Shown one piece after another: positions 12,308 to 21,377 of a stretch of DNA of 64,000 bases. The stretch is from Myxococcota bacterium (GTDB lineage: Bacteria > Myxococcota > XYA12-FULL-58-9 > JALHOP01): positions 106,144-170,143 of the forward strand of contig JALHOP010000010.1 in assembly GCA_022842935.1 (NCBI GenBank). Direction: 5' to 3'. The translations under genes and the position numbers were made by a program. The notes beneath the pieces were generated by a model that made no database searches, was not told the DNA's origin, and worked only from the letters and a program-made list of their open reading frames with translations. Position 1 is the stretch's first letter; each line of letters starts with the position of its first letter.

Positions 12308-14393
12308 CTAGTAGAACCAAATCGGGTCAATATTGCCCGGGAGGGGCAGCGAGGCGGTAAGAACCAGGTCTCCCAGGTGGGTCGCCGTGATGCCCCGGTC
12401 GCTCACCGCCACGACATAGTCGCCCATGAAGATGCTGCGGCGAATGCCAGGGTTCGACCACCAGCGCGTCGGGTCATTGAAGAAGCCCGTGTGGTCGATG
12501 GCGCCAGCGCGAGCCAGGCCGTCCGCCGAAACGGAGATGAGCTCGAGGCTACTGTAGTAGCGATACCCGGAGGAGTAGTAGCCATAGCTCGAGAGCGGCA
12601 CCGCGAGAGTCTGCTTGGGCTCCCAGTAGGTGAAGGCTTTGTGCTCGTATTGCGCCTCGCTGTACGACCAGGAGTCTTTGTTCGGCAGACCCAGCTGCAG
12701 TGACGCTGCAAGCGCTGGCTCGGTTGGCACCGATACGTCAAATAGCGAGACCTGGGTCGTGCCCCAGTCGAGCCCGGTGTTGCTGCCAGCGATACCAATC
12801 GACAACAAGCGGCCCCCCGAGAGCGGGTGCACGTAGGTCGATACGCCCGGCACCTCGAGCTCGGACACCATCACGAGCTTTGCCGGATCGGAGAGATCGA
12901 CCGTCCAGAGCGGGTCGATGTTGAGGAAGGTGACGAGATACGCGGTATCGCCAACGAAGCGCGTGGCCCAGAGCGTCTCGCCAGGCGAGATGCCGCGGAG
13001 CTCACCGAGCACCGAGAGATGAAAGTCGCCCGAGAGCGTGAACACATTGCTGCTCACCGGTGGGGGGGTTTCGACCCACCAGCGACCCCAGCGATTCGAG
13101 GTCGTCGAGACCCGCACGACGCCGTCCTTCTCGGACAGGTTGAACTGGTTGCTGACGGCGCCGGGGACGCGGCCGCTACCCTGATAGGTCGAGACCCCAG
13201 GCGTCGCGATGTCGAAGCGGTGCAGGTTCGTCGCGTCGTCGAAGGTGTCGTCTTGCCCGTAGAACCACCACCAGTTCCACGACGGCTCGGCGATCACCAA
13301 AGTGTCCGCCGAAGCGTACACGACGCTCGTGTTCGAGACGACGTGGTCCGCCTCGTAGCCCTCCTTGGTGGTATCGAAGCTGACGATTGACGTTACACCG
13401 CGACCCAAGCTGTCCTCGGCGATGCCGAAGCCCGCACACTCGGCATCGGCGAAGTTGCGCGGGGCAATCGCGGCGCCGCGGCGCTCATAGACATTGGGGA
13501 TGAAGTCCGAGAGCGGCTTCTTGTCGATGATGGCATCGTTCTTGGCGATGGCGTCTTGCACTGCGCGCTCGCGGATCGCGCGCGCCTCGGCGCTCTTCCA
13601 GTCGAGCTGCCAATAGCGCTCGGGAAACTCAGGGTAGAACAACACGTCCCAGAGGTTGATTTGACCGTACGATACGAGGCGGATCGACGTCTCGATCTTG
13701 CGCGACGTCTGGTAGTAGCCCTCGACATAGAGCTCGCGTTTGTTCGTCGGGCGAGCGCGGTCGCTGATGTCGACGAAGGTGAGCTTCACCAGCTCGTTGG
13801 TGCGCCAGGTGCGGCCATCCGCGAAGACGGCATCGGCGAAGAGCGGGTGGTCGTAGCCAAAGTAATTCGGATAGATTTGCGAGAAGACCACCAAGGTGTC
13901 TCCCGCGATGAGCATCTCCTGCGGGTAGCCCTCGATATCGAGCGTCGCGACTTGGTCGAGCTGACCGAACTCGGGGACGGCGACGATGACCAGCGTGCGG
14001 CCATTGAGCACGTAGATGAAGTCACCATCGGTCTTGACGAAGTCGCCCTCGTCGACGCCGGTCTCCTGATTGTTGGTGCCAGAGTAGTCGACGCCTTCCT
14101 CACGACCTGCGCTGTCCGCTGCGGCGCTGGGCGCCCCATCGAACGAGGCGCTGTCTTCGGCGATGCCCCTGCCCCAGCCCCAGCCGTTCGACTCGTCGAG
14201 GTACTGCAGCAACATGGTGCGCGACTCTTCGCGGAGGTTGTCTTTGAGCTTACGCGCCAGCTCCTCGCAGCTATCGAAGCGCTTGAGGGCTGCGCTACTC
14301 GCAACCCGGGGCCCAATGTCGGGGCCATCGTTGTCCGAGCAGGCGGCGACCAGGGTCGCAGCAAGGATGAAGGTCGCAAGGCGCTTGAGCATG
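12308..14393 (-). CDS. Secreted lipoprotein, probably of the beta-propeller-domain family (PF09826-like); function unknown.
   Basis: Lipobox signal MLKRLATFILAATLVAAC. About 690 aa, repetitive beta-rich segments. The ORF opens further upstream, but the RBS and signal peptide favour 14393. Confidence 0.45.
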
Positions 14394-14564
14394 GGCCGAT
14401 CTCCTGAGACCGTTGGGTACTGCAGGAGACACGCCAAGTTCATGGGCATGATTTTGCTTACATTTTCTGTTCGCCGCGCAGTAAGACATGTCAACCGGCG
14501 TTGACATCGTCCACGTTCGGCGTCAGGCCAAGAAGGTTCCTGGTCGATTCCGCACGCCGGCTGG

Positions 14565-16241
<1,677 letters not shown>

Positions 16242-16358
16242 CGCGCCTTCCCGTACACGCGCCCCCCCCAGCTAATCAAGAACTTGCGTTGACCTACCTG
16301 TCCGGTGTCAAAAAGGCACCGCTCGGCATTCCGCTGAGGTCCATGGAGAGTCCACGAG

Positions 16359-16706
16359 ATGCAGTTCGCCCGTGCTTTGTTGATGGTTCTTGGTTTGAGC
16401 ACCTTCGCCGCTTGTGGTGGCGACAGCTTCGCTGACGAGTGCGCGAGCGGCTGCGAAGAAGCGGACTGCGATGGCAACGAGCCAAGCGCGGCAGAAGTCA
16501 CCTCGTGCCAGAACGCCTGTGACGACGCTGTTGCGTTGAACGAGAAGGCGGGCTGCAACGACCAGGCCGACGAGCTCGCGAGCTGCGGCGGCGACGCTTG
16601 CAGCGACGAAGCCAACGCCGAGTGTCAGTCGGCAAGCTCGGCTTACGTTTCCTGCATCGTAGCGTTCTGCACCCAAAATCCTAACGATACAGACTGCGCG
16701 CTCTAG
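16359..16706 (+). CDS. Small acidic cysteine-rich secreted lipoprotein, paralog 1 of 3 (12 Cys).
   Basis: Signal with lipobox (LSTFAAC). Mature part is about 95 aa with a conserved 12-Cys framework (CxxxC pairs) and ends in NPNxxxC. Confidence 0.7.
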   Translation: MQFARALLMVLGLSTFAACGGDSFADECASGCEEADCDGNEPSAAEVTSCQNACDDAVALNEKAGCNDQADELASCGGDACSDEANAECQSASSAYVSCIVAFCTQNPNDTDCAL

Positions 16707-16771
16707 ATTTATTTCGTTCGCTAGGTCGGCGGGGCACCTGGCCCCGCCGACCTCGTCACGATGGCACCGTT

Positions 16772-17119
16772 ATGATGACCTCTCTCTTCAGATGTCTTGC
16801 GCTGCTCGCTTGCATTGCCGTCGCCGCCTGCAGCAGCGACAACGCTGGCGACAAGTGTAAGGACAACTGCCGCATCGCTTGCGAAGGCGAACAAGCGCCC
16901 ACCGGTCCTGCGCTCATCAACTGCGACACCGAGTGCGACGCCATCCAGGCTCGCGTCGAGAAGCGCGGTTGTGACGACGACCTCGCGGCGCTCTACGACT
17001 GTGCGGAAGAAAACCAGTGCAAGGCGACCTTCGCCGCTGACTGCCGCGTCCAGACCGACGACCTCGCGGCCTGCGAGCTCGCGTATTGCCGCGCCAACAC
17101 GTCCGACCCCGACTGCTGA
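16772..17119 (+). CDS. Small acidic cysteine-rich secreted lipoprotein, paralog 2 of 3.
   Basis: Lipobox LLACIAVAAC. Same Cys spacing as paralog 1. Confidence 0.7.
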   Translation: MMTSLFRCLALLACIAVAACSSDNAGDKCKDNCRIACEGEQAPTGPALINCDTECDAIQARVEKRGCDDDLAALYDCAEENQCKATFAADCRVQTDDLAACELAYCRANTSDPDC

Positions 17120-17141
17120 AACCGTTCCAAGGAGAAACCCC

Positions 17142-17489
17142 ATGAAACTCGCCCACGTCCTCTGTTTGTCCCTCGGCTTGTTTGCTATCGCGGCCTGCGG
17201 CGGCAGCAGTGTCCAGGAAACCTGCGAAGAAGGCTGCGATCGCACCTGCGCTGGCGATGAGCCGCTCACCGCCGACGAGGTTGCCGAGTGCAAGGCCGAC
17301 TGCAAGCGCTTGGCCGACCGCGTCGACACGACGGACTGCGGCGATCAAGCCGAGGCGCTGAGCAGCTGCGGCGAAGACTACGTTTGCGACCCAGCAGTCA
17401 CCTCGGAGTGCGCTGACGAGTCGGCCGCGCTTCAGCGGTGCTTTGCGGACTTCTGCTTCGACAATCCCAACAACTCAGCTTGTAGCTAG
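17142..17489 (+). CDS. Small acidic cysteine-rich secreted lipoprotein, paralog 3 of 3.
   Basis: GGAGAAACCCC-ATG ribosome-binding site. Lipobox LFAIAAC. Same 12-Cys framework. Its stop TAG overlaps the OsmC GTG by 1 nt. Confidence 0.7.
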   Translation: MKLAHVLCLSLGLFAIAACGGSSVQETCEEGCDRTCAGDEPLTADEVAECKADCKRLADRVDTTDCGDQAEALSSCGEDYVCDPAVTSECADESAALQRCFADFCFDNPNNSACS

Positions 17490-17899
17490 TGGGTGTCCGC
17501 GTCGAGATCGACTACGAGGGCAAGCTGCACTGTCGGTGTGTGCACGCGCCCTCGGGCTCGGTGCTGCCGACGGACGCGCCGCGTGACAACCAGGGTTTGG
17601 GCGAGTCGTTTTCGCCCACCGACCTCGTCGGCACCGCGCTCGGCAGCTGCATGCTCACCACGATGGCCATCGCCGCCAGGAAGAGCGGTGTCGATCTCGG
17701 CCCCATGAGCGCGTCCGTTGACAAAGAGATGGTCGCCGACCCCAAGCGCCGCGTCGCAAAGCTCACGGTCGCCATCACCATGCCCGCCTCGGTCGACCCG
17801 GCGATGCGCGCACAGCTCGAGGACGTCGCTCACACGTGCCCCGTAGCCCTGACGCTCTCCGAGCGCACCGAGGTCGCGCTGTCGTTCACTTACGCCTGA
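17489..17899 (+). CDS. OsmC/Ohr-family peroxiredoxin.
   Basis: The two conserved Cys (GSCMLTTM and HTCPVA) and the ~136-aa length match OsmC/Ohr. Confidence 0.85.
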   Translation: MGVRVEIDYEGKLHCRCVHAPSGSVLPTDAPRDNQGLGESFSPTDLVGTALGSCMLTTMAIAARKSGVDLGPMSASVDKEMVADPKRRVAKLTVAITMPASVDPAMRAQLEDVAHTCPVALTLSERTEVALSFTYA

Positions 17900-17921
17900 G
17901 CGGACGGCGCGCACTCACGAG

Positions 17922-18341
17922 CTATTCGTCATCCCCATAGAGACCCGGTGGCGAGCGCATCACCCGGCGAATGATCTCCCCCAGGCGCATCGCGGCCGGG
18001 ACATCGCTAACGCGCAGGCGCCCCGTCAGGACCGCGAGCTCGGGGGTCAGCGAGCGATCCATCAAGCGTTTGAGCGTCTCTTCCGAGAGCGCAAAGGTGC
18101 AGTCGGCATTCGGCGCCGGACCTTCGGTGATACGGCCGCCGCGCACCGTGGTGTCGATGGTGACGGTGCCGTGCCCGTAGACGGTGACTTCGTAAACCGC
18201 GTTGGCCTTGGCCACGGCGTCAGGATTGGCGCGCATGGTGCGCGCCAGCTCATCGAGCAGCTGCGGAATGGTCGATCCGCTGATGTACGCTGGGCCGGTG
18301 GCAAAACACTGGTCGGCGCGAACGGCGTAGCAGGTCGACAT
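17922..18341 (-). CDS. SCP2 sterol-binding domain protein.
   Basis: C-terminal LTPELAVLTGRLRVSDVPAAMRLGEII is SCP2-like. Good RBS (GGAGGACTCAACC-ATG). Confidence 0.55.
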   Translation of the reverse strand: MSTCYAVRADQCFATGPAYISGSTIPQLLDELARTMRANPDAVAKANAVYEVTVYGHGTVTIDTTVRGGRITEGPAPNADCTFALSEETLKRLMDRSLTPELAVLTGRLRVSDVPAAMRLGEIIRRVMRSPPGLYGDDE

Positions 18342-18425
18342 GGTTGAGTCCTCCTTCGGAGGCCGTGTATCGGTGCGCCGGTCTTGCGGTTGCGTCGCGC
18401 GGCGGTGCCGAGCGGACACCGGGGC

Positions 18426-19667
18426 TCAGCGCCAGCGCGACCAGACGTCGGCGAGCGACATTTCGAGACGCTCGGCGCTGGTGTCGGGCACGTTTGGCTT
18501 CGCGCCGCGCAAGACGTCGGTTGCCTCGCCCAACCCATCCAGGGTGAGCTCGAACATGGGGAAGATGTCGCGGATCATGCGCACACTATCGGCGTTCCAG
18601 ATGCGCTTGGGCTCGGGGTTGAGCCACACCGAGCTCGGCGCCTTTTCGCGCAAGCGTTTTAGCCAGGTGAGGCCAGTCGTTCGCTGGTTGTCTGCGAGGT
18701 CGATGACCCCACCGATGTCCGTAAGCTCGTAGGGGCTCATCCAGGCATCGCCGACCATGACCAGCGACCAGGTCTGGTCGACCTCTTTGAGCACGTCGGT
18801 TGTTTGTGTTCCGCTGAAGCGGAACATATCGGTGTAGAGGCGTCGGTAGACGCAGTTGTGGAAGAAGTAGTGTTTGAAGGCCTTGAAGTGCTTTGCCGCA
18901 TGCGCCGCCGAGAAGAGGCGCTCGCAGAGCTCTGCGTGTGGATCCATCGAGCCGCCGACGTCGACGAGCAGCAGGAGCTTGACGCGATTCGCACGTGGGG
19001 GTGCGAAAACGAGGTCGATGTCACCGCCATCGCGAGCGCTCTTGTCGATGGTGGCGTCGATATCGAGCTCGAGCTGGTTGTCCGTTTTGGCGAGCTTACG
19101 TAGACGTTTGAGCGCCGCGCCCATTTCGCGTGTGCCGAGAACACGATCGCTACGGAGGTTTGCGAAGCGCCGTGATTCCGCGATCTGCACGGCCGAGCGC
19201 CCGCCCCCGGCCCCGCCGACACGCACCCCCGTGGGGTTCTGCCCACCGTGACCAAAGGGCGACGTCCCGCCCGTACCGATCCAGCGGTTACCGCCGTCGT
19301 GGCGCTCTTTTTGCTCGCGGCGACGTTTCTCGAGCTCGTCTTTGAGACGGTCGAGGTCCCACGCCGCAAGCATGGCGCGCTCCTCGTCGCTGAGGTCGCG
19401 CGGTAGCACCGGATTTTCGAGCCATTTCATGAGCTCGTCGTCGACCGCGAAGGTCATCGGAACGTTCTTGAAGACGCTCGCGAAGACCTGGTCGTAAGTA
19501 TCGTATTGCGCCTCGCGTTTGACCAATAGGGCCCGCGCGAGCTCGTAGAAGGTCTCGAGGCTCGAGCGCGCATGCCCCGCCGCGAGCGCCTGCATGAGCG
19601 CAAGCCACTCGGTGGTCCCCACCTTGATCCCGGCCGCGCGGAGGCCGAAAAAAAGGCTCGCGAACAT
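18426..19667 (-). CDS. VWA-domain protein (CoxE-like, partner of the MoxR ATPase).
   Basis: C-terminal vWA fold; about 414 aa. Its start overlaps the MoxR stop (TGATG). Confidence 0.8.
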   Translation of the reverse strand: MFASLFFGLRAAGIKVGTTEWLALMQALAAGHARSSLETFYELARALLVKREAQYDTYDQVFASVFKNVPMTFAVDDELMKWLENPVLPRDLSDEERAMLAAWDLDRLKDELEKRRREQKERHDGGNRWIGTGGTSPFGHGGQNPTGVRVGGAGGGRSAVQIAESRRFANLRSDRVLGTREMGAALKRLRKLAKTDNQLELDIDATIDKSARDGGDIDLVFAPPRANRVKLLLLVDVGGSMDPHAELCERLFSAAHAAKHFKAFKHYFFHNCVYRRLYTDMFRFSGTQTTDVLKEVDQTWSLVMVGDAWMSPYELTDIGGVIDLADNQRTTGLTWLKRLREKAPSSVWLNPEPKRIWNADSVRMIRDIFPMFELTLDGLGEATDVLRGAKPNVPDTSAERLEMSLADVWSRWR

Positions 19668-20494
19668 CACGAGGCACGCACCCCTTTCTTCTCGAGCGCC
19701 CGCACCGCCGCCTCGACGTCTTGCTCGCGCTTCAAGAGAACACCCAGGAACGGCAGCTCCTTTTCGATCGACTCGGCGCTCATACCGCCAGCGCGCAAGG
19801 CAGCGATCCAATCGATGAGCTCACTCGTCGATGGACGCTTACGAATATCCGACTGCTTGCGTAGCCAGTAGAAGCTCGCCATGGCCTGCGACAGGAGCTT
19901 CTCCTCGAGCTGCGGGTGATGAACCGCGACGATGTCGCGCATCAAGGACTCGTCCGGGAAAGCGATGTAGTGAAAGACGCAGCGTCGCAGGAAGGCGTCG
20001 GGCAGCTCCTTCTCGTTGTTGCTCGTGACGACGACGATTGGTCGGTGCTTGGCCGTGATGGTGGCGCCGGTCTCGTCGATGGTGAAGCTCATGCGGTCGA
20101 GCTCGTGCAAGAGATCATTCGGGAACTCGAGGTCGGCCTTGTCGATCTCATCGACCAAGAGCACCACGCGCTCGCTCGCGGCGAGTGCGCGGCCAAGGCT
20201 TCCGAGCTTGATGTACTTGCCGATGTCCCGAATATCGCGGTCGTTGAAGCGCGCGTCGTTGAGGCGCGCCACCGTGTCGTAAACGTACAAGCCATCGCGT
20301 GCCTTGGTGGTCGATTTGACGTTCCAGGCGATGAGCGGCAATCCCAACCCTTCCGCGATGGCGGACGCGAGCTGCGTTTTTCCCGTGCCGGGCTCCCCTT
20401 TGACGAGCAGTGGGCGGCCCAACGAGACCGCGACGTTAACGACGTCCCGCAACGCGGGGGATACCAGATAACCCTTGGTGCCCGAAAACTGCAT
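19667..20494 (-). CDS. MoxR-family AAA+ ATPase (CoxD-like).
   Basis: Walker A LVKGEPGTGKTQLA, Walker B VVLLVDEIDKA, sensor motifs. Confidence 0.85.
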   Translation of the reverse strand: MQFSGTKGYLVSPALRDVVNVAVSLGRPLLVKGEPGTGKTQLASAIAEGLGLPLIAWNVKSTTKARDGLYVYDTVARLNDARFNDRDIRDIGKYIKLGSLGRALAASERVVLLVDEIDKADLEFPNDLLHELDRMSFTIDETGATITAKHRPIVVVTSNNEKELPDAFLRRCVFHYIAFPDESLMRDIVAVHHPQLEEKLLSQAMASFYWLRKQSDIRKRPSTSELIDWIAALRAGGMSAESIEKELPFLGVLLKREQDVEAAVRALEKKGVRAS

Positions 20495-20597
20495 GCCGCT
20501 ACGGTCACACGCACACCACGAAATGGCAACGCACCAAACCCGCCTCGATCGCGCATGGCCGTTGACGGCCGCCCCATGGGCGAGGGAGACCGGAGCC

Positions 20598-21377
20598 GTG
20601 CGCCACGCTCTCATGCTCGCCCTTTCGACGACCATCGCTTGCGCGCCCGAGAAGCCTCCCGCGCTTTCCCTGACCGTGGGAAAGCTTCAGCTCGACTATC
20701 AGGCGCTCACGGACATCGTGAAACCGGTCGACGTAAACACCGATGACCCGGTCTACGGACGCTTCAAGCACTATCGCGCCTTTCCCTTGCTCCCCATCCT
20801 CGAGCGCGCCTTCGGCGACAGGGCTTCCCTAAAGGACCGCCAGCTCATCATCCACGCAACCGATGGCTACGCGGTCCCAGTGACCGGGGACATCCTCACC
20901 GAAGACGGTGCGTATCTCGCGTTCCGCGATCGCGAACATGCCGGTTGGGAGCCGATTGGGCCGCGCAAACAAGACCCCGGCCCCCTCTACCTCGTTTGGA
21001 CGGGTAGCGACCACCGCGACACCACGACCTACCCATGGCCCTACAACGTCGCGCGCATCGAGGTCGTCGAGTCGCTCGCCGTCCTCTACCCGCGCACCGT
21101 GCCCCGAGACGAGACCGCCAGGCGCGGCCACGAAATCTTCCTGCACAAGTGCGTGAAGTGCCACGCCGTGAACCGCCAGGGAGGAAGTGTGGGACCCGAG
21201 CTCAACGTGCCGATGAACGTGACCGAATATTGGACCGTCGATCAAATCAAGGCTTACGTGAAGAACCCGGCGACGTTTCGCTACGGCGCCATGCCGGCCA
21301 ACCCTGATCTCACGGACGTCGATCTGAACGCTTTAGCGTACTACCTCCTGGCGATGAAAGCGCAAAAACAAGAATGA
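20598..21377 (+). CDS. Lipoprotein with a C-terminal class-I c-type cytochrome domain.
   Basis: CVKCH haem-binding motif and downstream Met ligand (GAMPAN). N-terminal signal/lipobox TIAC. The start could be GTG 20598 or ATG 20613. Confidence 0.7.
   Translation: MRHALMLALSTTIACAPEKPPALSLTVGKLQLDYQALTDIVKPVDVNTDDPVYGRFKHYRAFPLLPILERAFGDRASLKDRQLIIHATDGYAVPVTGDILTEDGAYLAFRDREHAGWEPIGPRKQDPGPLYLVWTGSDHRDTTTYPWPYNVARIEVVESLAVLYPRTVPRDETARRGHEIFLHKCVKCHAVNRQGGSVGPELNVPMNVTEYWTVDQIKAYVKNPATFRYGAMPANPDLTDVDLNALAYYLLAMKAQKQE

What the first reader, a model, noticed from the sequence alone, without database searches (positions are those of the whole stretch)
16359..17899. Three tandem paralogous acidic 12-cysteine lipoproteins translationally coupled to an OsmC/Ohr peroxiredoxin
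Three consecutive ~115-aa ORFs each encode a lipobox signal peptide followed by about 95 very acidic residues. They share a conserved 12-Cys framework (C-x3-C-x3-C ... C-x3-C ... C-x4/5-C ... C-x4-C ... NPNxxxC) but are otherwise divergent. The third ends TAG-overlapping the GTG of an OsmC/Ohr peroxiredoxin. I know no family with this Cys pattern. Candidate roles: disulfide-rich periplasmic redox buffers or thiol-peroxide sensors linked to OsmC, metal (Cu/Zn) chaperones, or secreted inhibitor or bacteriocin-like peptides. A tandem triplication suggests dosage or diversifying selection.
Basis: seen in the sequence. Interest (0 to 1): 0.6.

Follow-up and report, generated by a model that had tools for sequence, protein, structure and literature searches.

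The report
Undescribed six-disulfide acidic lipoprotein trio
Three neighbouring genes encode small, very acidic membrane-anchored proteins built on a rigid 12-cysteine helical scaffold that belongs to a real but so far undescribed bacterial protein family; their tie to the adjacent OsmC-like stress gene is confined to one narrow lineage and their function is still unknown.

Summary
cys1 (16359-16706), cys2 (16772-17119) and cys3 (17142-17489) each encode a 115-aa lipobox precursor with 12 invariant mature cysteines and net charge -12 to -20. cys3's TAG overlaps the GTG of an OsmC-like gene (17489-17899).

They belong to a larger unnamed family. It has 178 cluster representatives, its Cys positions are at least 99% conserved, and most members have a lipobox. 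There is no Pfam, NCBIfam, PADLOC, PHROG or PDB match.

AlphaFold2 gives a confident all-helical domain (pLDDT 91.5 and 86.2) with no Foldseek neighbour in PDB. Motif geometry and paired Cys losses suggest six disulfides: a twin-CX3C hairpin, a twin-CX9C hairpin and two staples.

The triplication is ancient. Each paralog has its own orthologs, and dN/dS is 0.15-0.5. This does not support recent duplication for dosage or diversification.

The four-gene cassette is kept in six or more related Myxococcota-like MAGs. Outside that clade, family members lack OsmC and OsmC-like homologs lack them, so the redox-partner idea is weak. The partner is a 2pn2-type OsmC-superfamily protein, not an OsmC or Ohr subfamily member.

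One distant subfamily sits directly after tolB, in the usual pal slot. My best guess, at low confidence, is rigid acidic outer-membrane envelope proteins made within a stress operon.

The parts
16242..16358 (.). Divergent intergenic region between ettA (minus strand, start at 16241) and cys1. It presumably holds the promoter and operator. It contains the invariant blocks AATCAAGAACTTGC, a TTGAC-N13-GTCAA palindrome and CGCTCGGCA, plus a GGAGAG ribosome-binding site at 16345-16350.
   Evidence: Mean column identity is 87% across four loci, although synonymous divergence of the flanking genes is 0.43-1.5. The same blocks are present in L018 and L019. The consensus sigma-70 scan found nothing and Rfam found nothing.
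16359..16706 (+). cys1: 115-aa lipoprotein precursor (lipid Cys19) with 12 Cys in the mature part and net charge -20.5. It is the most acidic paralog.
   Evidence: Orthologs are P0010, P0011, P0014, P0013 and P0017. The AF2 model has pLDDT 86.2. dN/dS is 0.15-0.45.
16714..16761 (+). GC-rich stem-loop in the cys1-cys2 spacer (core stem 16723-16735 pairing with 16741-16753). It is probably a partial terminator or a transcript-stabilising hairpin that sets cys1 expression apart from cys2, cys3 and the OsmC-like gene.
   Evidence: Folding energy is -35.4 kcal/mol, z = -4.1, and 0 of 200 shuffles fold as well. A perfect hairpin of different sequence sits at the same place in L001, L004, L005, L018 and L019; in L019 it is followed by TTTT. 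The terminator scan missed it because the window copy has no T-run.
16772..17119 (+). cys2: 115-aa lipoprotein precursor (lipid Cys20) with 12 Cys and net charge -12.5. It has the best-conserved orthogroup, with an invariant C-terminal YCR-x2-TSDPDC.
   Evidence: dN/dS is 0.24-0.49.
17142..17489 (+). cys3: 115-aa lipoprotein precursor (lipid Cys19) with 12 Cys and net charge -17.5. An AGGAG ribosome-binding site lies at 17130-17134.
   Evidence: The AF2 model has pLDDT 91.5 and pTM 0.76, with helices at residues 2-14, 26-46, 49-61, 68-71 and 73-89 of the mature protein. dN/dS is 0.19-0.52.
17489..17899 (+). OsmC-superfamily protein of 136 aa with no signal peptide. Both family cysteines are present (C54 in GSCMLTT, C117 in HTCPVA). 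Its GTG start shares one base with the cys3 stop codon.
   Evidence: Pfam OsmC E = 3.2e-12. It is below the OsmC and Ohr subfamily cutoffs. Closest PDB entry is 2pn2, E = 6.6e-26. The junction with cys3 stays within -1 to +1 nt in L001, L004, L005 and L018.

Best explanation
SHOWN. The locus is a four-gene operon.
- Three anciently diverged paralogs of an undescribed, largely Myxococcota-associated family of small lipoproteins come first.
- A cytoplasmic OsmC-like protein follows, coupled to the last one by a one-base stop/start overlap.
- Each lipoprotein has a Sec-type lipobox signal peptide, a short tether of about 8 residues, and one all-helical domain of about 90 residues with 12 near-invariant Cys.

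INFERRED (structure). The 12 Cys form six disulfides.
- A twin-CX3C hairpin pairs c1-c5 and c2-c4.
- A twin-CX9C hairpin pairs c6-c10 and c7-c9.
- Two staples pair c3-c8 and c11-c12.
- The result is a rigid, oxidation- and protease-resistant bundle whose exposed surface is strongly anionic and evolves quickly.

INFERRED (function, my committed guess).
- With Gly or Ser at position +2, the proteins go to the outer membrane.
- There they act as non-redundant structural or adaptor modules of the cell envelope. They bind basic partners or divalent cations at the membrane surface rather than doing redox chemistry.
- The operon co-produces them with a cytoplasmic OsmC-like thiol protein as one stress or stationary-phase unit. 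This resembles in logic the E. coli RpoS set osmB/osmE/osmY plus osmC.
- The hairpin after cys1 tunes cys1 relative to cys2, cys3 and the OsmC-like gene. The stop/start overlap ties OsmC-like output to cys3 translation.
For: - Family reality and Cys framework. All 13 Cys columns, including the lipid Cys, are at least 99% conserved in 149 sequences.
- Lipoprotein signals: the rule is matched by cys1-3 and by 113 of 136 family members. The +2 residue is G in 71 and S in 22.
- Confident helical models with helix boundaries that put CX3C/CX3C and CX9C/CX9C on paired helices.
- Paired Cys losses: P0182 lacks c2 and c4, and P0099 lacks c3 and c8.
- His and Met are absent (median 0) and there is no twin-arginine signal (and the sequences).
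- The acidity is specific to these proteins and typical of the family: median net charge -13, and only 2.7% of members are non-acidic.
- The three orthogroups are ancient and under purifying selection.
- The cassette, the hairpin and the junction are conserved in L001-L007, L013/L014, L018 and L019, even where the downstream neighbours change through insertion of an 803-aa gene or a Neprosin gene.
- An envelope role for the fold: a distant subfamily is encoded 3 nt after tolB in tolQ-tolR-tolA-tolB operons at four loci.
Against: - No experiment, no expression data, and no characterised homolog exist.
- The disulfide map is inferred.
- Outer-membrane sorting rests on rules from other organisms.
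- Everything upstream of the cassette (ettA, the beta-propeller gene, the kinase) is also syntenic. Conservation of the cys-OsmC adjacency is therefore partly just phylogenetic closeness.
- The stress-operon analogy rests only on the OsmC-like neighbour.
- The Tol-linked members are distant relatives (21-24% identity to cys3 in BLASTP) and less acidic, so their context may not transfer.
- Nothing shows a binding partner or cation binding.
Confidence: 0.4

Rival explanations
1. Periplasmic redox buffer or thiol-peroxide sensor that works with the OsmC-like protein. The many cysteines would cycle between thiol and disulfide states to absorb or signal oxidants.
For: Cys makes up 13% of the mature chain. 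The operon and translational coupling to an OsmC-superfamily protein with both catalytic-type Cys are conserved in every cassette.
Against: - The OsmC-like protein has no signal peptide, so the two sit in different compartments.
- The association does not hold outside one narrow clade. None of 80 loci with OsmC-like homologs has a family member. None of the distant family members has an OsmC gene nearby.
- The twin-CX3C and twin-CX9C spacing on paired helices, and the pairwise Cys losses, fit structural disulfides.
- No CxxC redox motif is present.
Confidence: 0.1
2. Metal storage or chaperone protein. Cysteine thiolates lining a helical bundle would bind Cu(I) or other soft metals, as in the Csp1/Csp3 copper storage proteins.
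For: The domain is a helical bundle with many Cys pointing to helix interfaces. It is an exported protein. The first part of the motif (C-x3-C-x3-C) looks superficially like Cys-rich metal motifs.
Against: - None of 149 members hits Pfam DUF326/Csp at E <= 0.1.
- No Csp chain appears in the PDB profile search at E <= 1 or in the Foldseek lists at E <= 10.
- The signal peptides are Sec lipoprotein signals without a twin-arginine motif. The proteins therefore fold in the oxidising periplasm (from the sequences).
- The Cys count is even and Cys are lost in pairs.
- His and Met are essentially absent.
- No copper or zinc resistance genes lie nearby.
Confidence: 0.1
3. Membrane-anchored inhibitor or immunity proteins. 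They would neutralise basic periplasm-acting enzymes or peptides such as lysozymes, bacteriocins, secreted effectors or cationic antimicrobial peptides. Three specificities would be encoded side by side.
For: They are small, acidic lipoproteins with fast-evolving surfaces on a fixed scaffold. dN/dS is 0.15-0.5 against 0.05-0.11 for ettA. Divergent paralogs sit in tandem. Anchored lysozyme inhibitors and periplasmic immunity lipoproteins are established precedents (my own knowledge, not tested here).
Against: - No toxin, effector or secretion gene lies adjacent.
- Copy number is fixed at three with 1:1:1 orthology, with none of the gain and loss typical of immunity arrays.
- All genes are under purifying selection, with no sign of positive selection at the level tested.
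- PADLOC is negative.
- Some relatives sit in a housekeeping tol operon.
Confidence: 0.15
4. The link with the OsmC-like gene is a lineage-specific operon accident with no functional meaning. The three lipoproteins would be ordinary envelope proteins that happen to share a transcript with an unrelated housekeeping gene.
For: The two families occur independently everywhere else sampled. The whole neighbourhood is syntenic in the cassette clade, so conservation is not independent evidence.
Against: The cys3/OsmC-like junction stays within one nucleotide across loci whose cys genes are only about 50% identical and whose downstream neighbours were rearranged. This suggests selection on the coupling itself.
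Confidence: 0.2

Closest known systems
Eukaryotic twin-CX9C (CHCH) proteins of the mitochondrial intermembrane space (Cox17, Mia40 core, NDUFA8, NDUFS5, Cmc1; Pfam CHCH, Cmc1 and CX9C families)
   Same: The second half of the domain carries C-x9-C ... C-x9-C on two consecutive predicted helices. The only sequence resemblances found anywhere are weak hits to these families. The PDB profile hits at E = 0.04-0.8 are mostly CHCH proteins. 29 of the sub-threshold per-member Pfam hits are to Cmc1, CHCH or CX9C. Both kinds of protein fold by oxidation in a compartment outside the cytoplasm.
   Different: No hit reaches a Pfam cutoff; the window's cys3 scores 14.6 bits against 27.2. No CHCH structure appears in the Foldseek lists. 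This domain is bacterial, lipid-anchored and about twice as long, and it has four further disulfides. The similarity may be no more than convergence on a simple hairpin motif.
Small Tim proteins (Tim9/Tim10, twin-CX3C)
   Same: The first half of the domain has C-x3-C on helix 1 and C-x3-C on helix 2. The joint loss of c2 and c4 in P0182 fits the nested pairing known for twin-CX3C hairpins (the Tim pairing itself is from my own knowledge).
   Different: No member gives a Pfam hit to the Tim10 family at E <= 0.1. The location, size and lipid anchor all differ.
Csp1/Csp3 copper storage proteins (Pfam DUF326)
   Same: Both are small Cys-rich helical bundles, and Csp1 is also exported.
   Different: There is no sequence or fold match. 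The signal is a Sec lipobox and not a Tat signal. The Cys count is even with paired losses, which points to disulfides rather than thiolate clusters.
E. coli osmotically inducible and stationary-phase set: the lipoproteins OsmB and OsmE plus cytoplasmic OsmC
   Same: Small envelope lipoproteins of unknown role are produced together with an OsmC-superfamily protein. This is an analogy of logic only, drawn from my own knowledge.
   Different: There is no homology between cys1-3 and OsmB or OsmE (no NCBIfam or Pfam hits). In E. coli the genes are a regulon rather than one operon. The partner here is a 2pn2-type protein and not OsmC proper.
Pal, the peptidoglycan-associated lipoprotein of the Tol-Pal system
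   Same: A distant subfamily of the 12-Cys lipoproteins occupies the exact operon position of pal, starting 3 nt after tolB, at four loci.
   Different: It has no OmpA-like peptidoglycan-binding domain (no Pfam hit on record, same calls). The window's three genes are not next to tol genes. Whether those genomes have a normal pal elsewhere is unknown.

Membership tests
Bacterial lipoproteins (signal peptidase II substrates) | N-terminal signal with a basic n-region, an uncharged h-region and a lipobox ending in Cys (PROSITE PS51257-type rule) | tested here: met
   cys1, cys2 and cys3 match with Cys at residues 19, 20 and 19, and each has K or R in the first 7 residues. 113 of 136 family members match. 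The lipid-Cys column is 100% conserved.
Bacterial lipoproteins (signal peptidase II substrates) | Actual lipidation and membrane localisation | not testable with these tools
   This needs globomycin sensitivity, palmitate labelling or fractionation.
CHCH / twin-CX9C (Pfam PF06747 and clan relatives) | Score above the Pfam gathering threshold | tested here: not met
   cys3 scores 14.6 bits against 27.2, and cys1 and cys2 give no hit. The best E-value across 149 members is 3.6e-4.
CHCH / twin-CX9C (Pfam PF06747 and clan relatives) | Two C-x9-C motifs on the two helices of a helix-turn-helix | tested here: met
   The spacing ...C-x9-C...C-x9-C... is invariant in nearly all members. The motifs fall on helices 49-61 and 73-89 of the cys3 model.
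Small Tim / twin-CX3C (Pfam zf-Tim10_DDP) | Pfam match | tested here: not met
   It is not among the families hit by any of 149 members at E <= 0.1. The twin C-x3-C motif itself is present.
Csp copper storage proteins (Pfam DUF326) | Pfam match or fold match to solved Csp structures | tested here: not met
   There is no DUF326 hit. No Csp chain appears in the PDB profile search or in the Foldseek PDB searches of two models.
Csp copper storage proteins (Pfam DUF326) | Cu(I) binding by Cys thiolates | not testable with these tools
   This needs metal analysis of purified protein.
OsmC superfamily (the partner gene, 17489-17899) | Pfam PF02566 above cutoff and both conserved cysteines | tested here: met
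   It scores 47.2 bits against 27.5. C54 and C117 align with the Cys of 2pn2.
OsmC subfamily / Ohr subfamily peroxiredoxins | Score above the NCBIfam subfamily cutoffs (TIGR03562, TIGR03561) | tested here: not met
   It scores 17.1 against 85.8 and 17.0 against 88.85 bits.
OsmC subfamily / Ohr subfamily peroxiredoxins | Hydroperoxide reductase activity | not testable with these tools
   No characterised close relative exists. The nearest structure, 2pn2, is annotated as uncharacterized.
Pal (considered for the Tol-linked relatives only) | OmpA-like peptidoglycan-binding domain | tested here: not met
   No Pfam family is on record for the genes after tolB in L009, L010, L015 and L017. They match the 12-Cys family HMM at E = 1e-22.

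The most novel reading that the evidence does not exclude
The 12-Cys domain could be a new class of outer-membrane envelope-tethering lipoprotein. In some Myxococcota a family member would have taken the place of Pal as the lipoprotein partner encoded after tolB. The window's conserved trio would then form a related heteromeric, disulfide-locked, anionic layer or adaptor at the outer membrane, deployed under stress.

A still bolder reading is also not excluded. The domain could be a true bacterial relative of the twin-CX3C and twin-CX9C proteins that fold by oxidation in the mitochondrial intermembrane space.
Probability: 0.12. Interest if true: 0.75.

Novelty: new variant of a known kind. Interest (0 to 1): 0.45.

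Why it matters
This gives a concrete description of a protein family that no library names. It has at least 178 sequence clusters, a fixed 12-Cys framework, a confident helical model and no structural neighbour found so far.

It is the first case I could find, in the libraries and papers searched, of one bacterial envelope domain that combines the twin-CX3C and twin-CX9C disulfide-hairpin motifs. Those motifs are otherwise known from mitochondrial intermembrane-space proteins.

The Tol-operon subfamily offers a testable entry point into how some Myxococcota organise the outer-membrane end of the Tol system.

For the window itself the pay-off is more modest. It holds a conserved but lineage-restricted operon in uncultured bacteria, and its function is still a guess.

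Tried and rejected
- Family libraries. Pfam, NCBIfam, PADLOC and PHROGs gave no family for cys1-3.
- PDB sequence profile search. Only sub-threshold hits, mostly to CHCH proteins.
- Locus search with the broad family alignment. It failed for lack of a conserved stretch.
- GTDB scan with the cys2 group. Only two species were found.
- Second word-index search with 136 sequences. It gave only 26 hits and almost no names. The cluster look-up gave no organism names.
- Neighbour-joining tree of the 93-column domain. It could not resolve whether the three paralogs form one clade; their common ancestor spans 129 of 149 tips. I therefore claim only that each is closer to its orthologs than to its neighbours.
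- Regulatory scans. The sigma-70 and terminator consensus scans and Rfam found nothing in 16000-18500. The post-cys1 hairpin was found by eye and by folding.
- RNAalifold on the six hairpins. The spacers barely align, so it gave a poor consensus. Each hairpin is clear on its own.
- Literature. Four searches found no description of such a protein or of DUF6438.
- Recent duplication or diversifying selection: rejected.
- General acidity of the proteome: rejected.
- Antisense ORFs as the real genes: rejected.
- Phage or defence origin: rejected.
Full report
**1. The observation**

The + strand between 16359 and 17899 holds four tightly packed ORFs.
- cys1 is 16359-16706, cys2 is 16772-17119 and cys3 is 17142-17489.
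- cys3 starts at the ATG at 17142, seven bases after an AGGAG. The ORF listing shows it inside a longer TTG ORF.
- Each encodes 115 aa.
- Each begins with a basic n-region, an uncharged h-region and a lipobox. The lipid Cys is at residue 19, 20 and 19 by a PROSITE-type rule.
- Twelve further Cys align as invariant columns, although the proteins are only 29-40% identical.
- The mature chains contain 13% Cys and no His. Net charge is -20.5, -12.5 and -17.5.
- The window's other ORFs have a median pI of 6.9, so the acidity is specific to these proteins.
- The cys3 stop (TAG, 17487-17489) shares its last base with the GTG of a 136-aa ORF (17489-17899). That ORF hits Pfam OsmC at 47.2 bits against a cutoff of 27.5.
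- GC3 favours these frames (0.74-0.80) over most antisense ORFs (0.56-0.68; one is 0.72).

The finding's description is correct.

**2. A real, larger, unnamed family**

Pfam, NCBIfam, PADLOC and PHROGs give no family for cys1-3. The only hit is CHCH at 14.6 bits, below the 27.2 cutoff.

An exhaustive HMMER search with the three-sequence profile against 1.84 billion cluster representatives found 178 proteins at E <= 1e-3 and 11 at E <= 1e-10.
- Nearly all are 105-130 aa.
- Nearly all share the spacing C-x3-C-x(3-7)-C-x(4-16)-C-x3-C-x11-C-x9-C-x(4-9)-C-x(3-10)-C-x9-C-x4-C-x8-C.

In a 149-sequence alignment, every one of the 12 Cys columns and the lipid-Cys column is at least 99% conserved.
- 113 of 136 members match the lipoprotein rule, mostly with G or S at position +2.
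- The family is typically acidic, with median net charge -13 and only 2.7% of members non-acidic. Median His and Met counts are zero.

Variants exist.
- Two-domain proteins: P0030 and P0112.
- Proteins with an extra C-terminal Cys module: P0050, P0063, P0113, P0132 and P0150.

Every source calls these 'hypothetical protein'. The only organism labels seen are 'Myxococcota bacterium', 'Polyangiaceae bacterium' and one MAG labelled 'uncultured Bdellovibrionales bacterium'. Four literature searches found nothing on such a protein.

**3. Structure**

AlphaFold2 with the family alignment gives a confident all-helical domain.
- Mature cys3: pLDDT 91.5, pTM 0.76, helices 2-14, 26-46, 49-61, 68-71 and 73-89.
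- Mature cys1: pLDDT 86.2, the same layout.

Foldseek finds no neighbour.
- In PDB the best hits are E = 3.2 with TM <= 0.43 for cys3, and E = 9 for cys1.
- None is found in the viral structure set.

Mapping the Cys onto the helices gives this layout.
- c1 and c2 (C-x3-C) lie on helix 1.
- c4 and c5 (C-x3-C) lie on helix 2.
- c6 and c7 (C-x9-C) lie on helix 3.
- c9 and c10 (C-x9-C) lie on the last long helix.
- c3 and c8 are in loops, c11 is at the end of the last helix and c12 is in the tail.

This is a twin-CX3C hairpin followed by a twin-CX9C hairpin.

The only sequence echoes anywhere are sub-threshold hits to eukaryotic twin-CX9C proteins.
- In the PDB profile search these include Mia40, NDUFA8, NDUFS5 and p8-MTCP1, at E = 0.04-0.8.
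- In per-member Pfam scans, Cmc1, CHCH and CX9C are hit by 14, 9 and 6 of 149 members.

Two natural experiments support specific pairs.
- P0182 has lost c2 and c4 together relative to its close relative P0174.
- P0099 lacks c3 and c8.

By elimination I infer c1-c5, c2-c4, c3-c8, c6-c10, c7-c9 and c11-c12. This is inference; I had no coordinates.

**4. The triplication is old and the set is kept intact**

The 19 closest homologs fall into three groups, one matching each paralog. BLOSUM distances are 0.2-0.4 to orthologs and about 0.6 or more to the other two paralogs.

The complete cys1-cys2-cys3-OsmC-like unit is present in the loci where the contig reaches far enough.
- L001-L003, L004 (the same contig as L013), L005, L007, L014 and L018 carry it. 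L006 shows the same layout but is cut off within the OsmC-like gene.
- In L018, cys1 is only about 50% identical to the window's copy.
- L019 shows the start of the same layout.

Pairwise dN/dS values are:

| Gene | dN/dS |
|---|---|
| cys1 | 0.15-0.45 |
| cys2 | 0.24-0.49 |
| cys3 | 0.19-0.52 |
| OsmC-like | 0.08-0.29 |
| ettA | 0.05-0.11 |

dS is near saturation, so these values are rough. The three genes are real, non-redundant and under purifying selection, but their non-Cys surfaces evolve fast. This contradicts a recent duplication for dosage or diversification.

The clade is narrow. Only two of 185,579 GTDB species representatives carry a cys2-type gene.

**5. Operon anatomy**

- ettA (ABC-F) is divergent upstream.
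- The 117-nt spacer is 87% identical across four loci, despite near-saturated synonymous sites in the flanking genes. It has invariant blocks and a TTGAC-N13-GTCAA palindrome. No consensus promoter or Rfam family was detected.
- After cys1 there is a strong GC-rich hairpin (16714-16761; -35.4 kcal/mol, z = -4.1). A hairpin of different sequence sits at the same spot in all five other loci examined. In L019 it is followed by TTTT. I read this as a partial terminator or a stabiliser that sets cys1 apart from the rest. That is inference.
- The cys3/OsmC-like junction is -1, -1, +1, 0 and -1 nt in the window, L001, L004, L005 and L018. It stays fixed while the downstream neighbours change through insertions of an 803-aa gene or a Neprosin gene.

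**6. The OsmC link**

The partner protein:
- It has no signal peptide.
- It keeps both family Cys.
- It is closest to PDB 2pn2, an uncharacterized structural-genomics protein (E = 6.6e-26).
- It falls far below the OsmC and Ohr subfamily cutoffs.

The subfamily is common. At least 347 relatives were found in metagenomes at the top of the list, with identities of 47-59%.

None of the 80 fetched loci (333 kb) has a 12-Cys gene at E <= 10.

Conversely, distant 12-Cys genes have no OsmC neighbour.

The pairing is therefore confined to one clade. It is conserved there, but that conservation is confounded with general synteny.

**7. Context elsewhere**

In four loci (L009, L010 together with L011, L015 and L017), a 118-121-aa family member starts 3 nt after tolB in a tolQ-tolR-tolA-tolB operon.
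- An SD-like GGAAGG lies inside the end of tolB.
- The next gene is often a DUF6438 lipoprotein.
- No OmpA-domain gene lies within 5 kb.

In most Gracilicute taxa analysed in a 2025 survey, pal is an OmpA-like lipoprotein and tol-pal gene order is similar (PMC12204202). This arrangement is therefore unusual. These four loci are themselves syntenic, so they count as one lineage.

Other members are solitary or sit among small unannotated genes (L008, L012, L016).

**8. Interpretation**

Shown:
- The family, its lipoprotein signals and its Cys framework.
- The helical model.
- The ancient trio under purifying selection.
- The conserved operon features.

Inferred:
- Six structural disulfides.
- Outer-membrane location.
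- A structural or adaptor envelope role with an anionic surface.
- A stress-operon logic.

I give this 0.4. Rivals are a redox buffer or sensor working with OsmC (0.1), Cu or other metal storage (0.1), inhibitor or immunity proteins (0.15) and a functionally meaningless operon link (0.2, which overlaps with the main view).

**9. Novelty**

The protein family is undescribed and has no detectable structural neighbour. Its building blocks are known kinds, however: lipoprotein anchoring and twin-CX3C/CX9C disulfide hairpins. Its function is unknown. I rate it a new variant of a known kind, of moderate interest. The Tol-operon subfamily is the most promising lead.

Noticed in passing
L009 5001-5366; L010 5001-5357 (same arrangement in L011 1441-1797); L015 5001-5357; L017 2754-3110: A distant subfamily of the 12-Cys lipoprotein is encoded 3 nt after tolB in tolQ-tolR-tolA-tolB operons, which is the slot normally held by pal. 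No OmpA-domain gene lies within 5 kb. The next gene is a DUF6438 lipoprotein (L015, L017) or a 231-aa lipoprotein (L010).
   Followed up: partly
window 16714-16761: A strong GC-rich hairpin lies between cys1 and cys2 (-35.4 kcal/mol, z = -4.1). It is conserved as a structure but not as a sequence in five other loci, and in L019 it is followed by TTTT. It is probably an internal attenuator or a transcript stabiliser.
   Followed up: partly
window 16242-16358: The ettA/cys1 divergent spacer is 87% identical across four loci whose coding synonymous sites are near saturation. It has the invariant blocks AATCAAGAACTTGC, TTGAC-N13-GTCAA and CGCTCGGCA. No promoter consensus or Rfam match was found, and the bound factor is unknown.
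   Followed up: partly
window 17489-17899; L020-L099: The OsmC-like protein belongs to a widespread, uncharacterised 2pn2-type subfamily. At least 347 metagenomic relatives were found, with identities of 47-59% among the 80 kept, and none of the 80 fetched loci has a 12-Cys neighbour.
   Followed up: yes
proteins P0030, P0112; P0050, P0063, P0113, P0132, P0150: The family has architectural variants. Some are tandem two-domain proteins with 24 Cys. Others carry an extra C-terminal module of about 8 Cys with its own conserved spacing (4-10-5-9-4-1-16-14).
   Followed up: no
L008 3679-4044 and 5001-5387: Two family members flank an oppositely oriented DUF2807 gene near clpB in an unrelated MAG. 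This is another small multi-copy arrangement, and it has no OsmC gene.
   Followed up: no
window 17922-20635 (minus strand): A conserved SCP2, VWA (CoxE-like) and MoxR-type AAA ATPase gene trio lies convergent to the cassette, and it is syntenic in L001, L004 and L007. The listed VWA ORF (TTG at 19811) overlaps the AAA gene by 145 nt. Orthologs are 414-415 aa, so the true start is probably further downstream.
   Followed up: no
window 12308-14494 (minus strand): A 728-aa acidic (pI 4.65) lipoprotein with a PF09826 beta-propeller domain lies beyond ettA, and in relatives a Ser/Thr kinase with TPR repeats lies next to it. Both are conserved upstream of ettA in all long syntenic loci.
   Followed up: no
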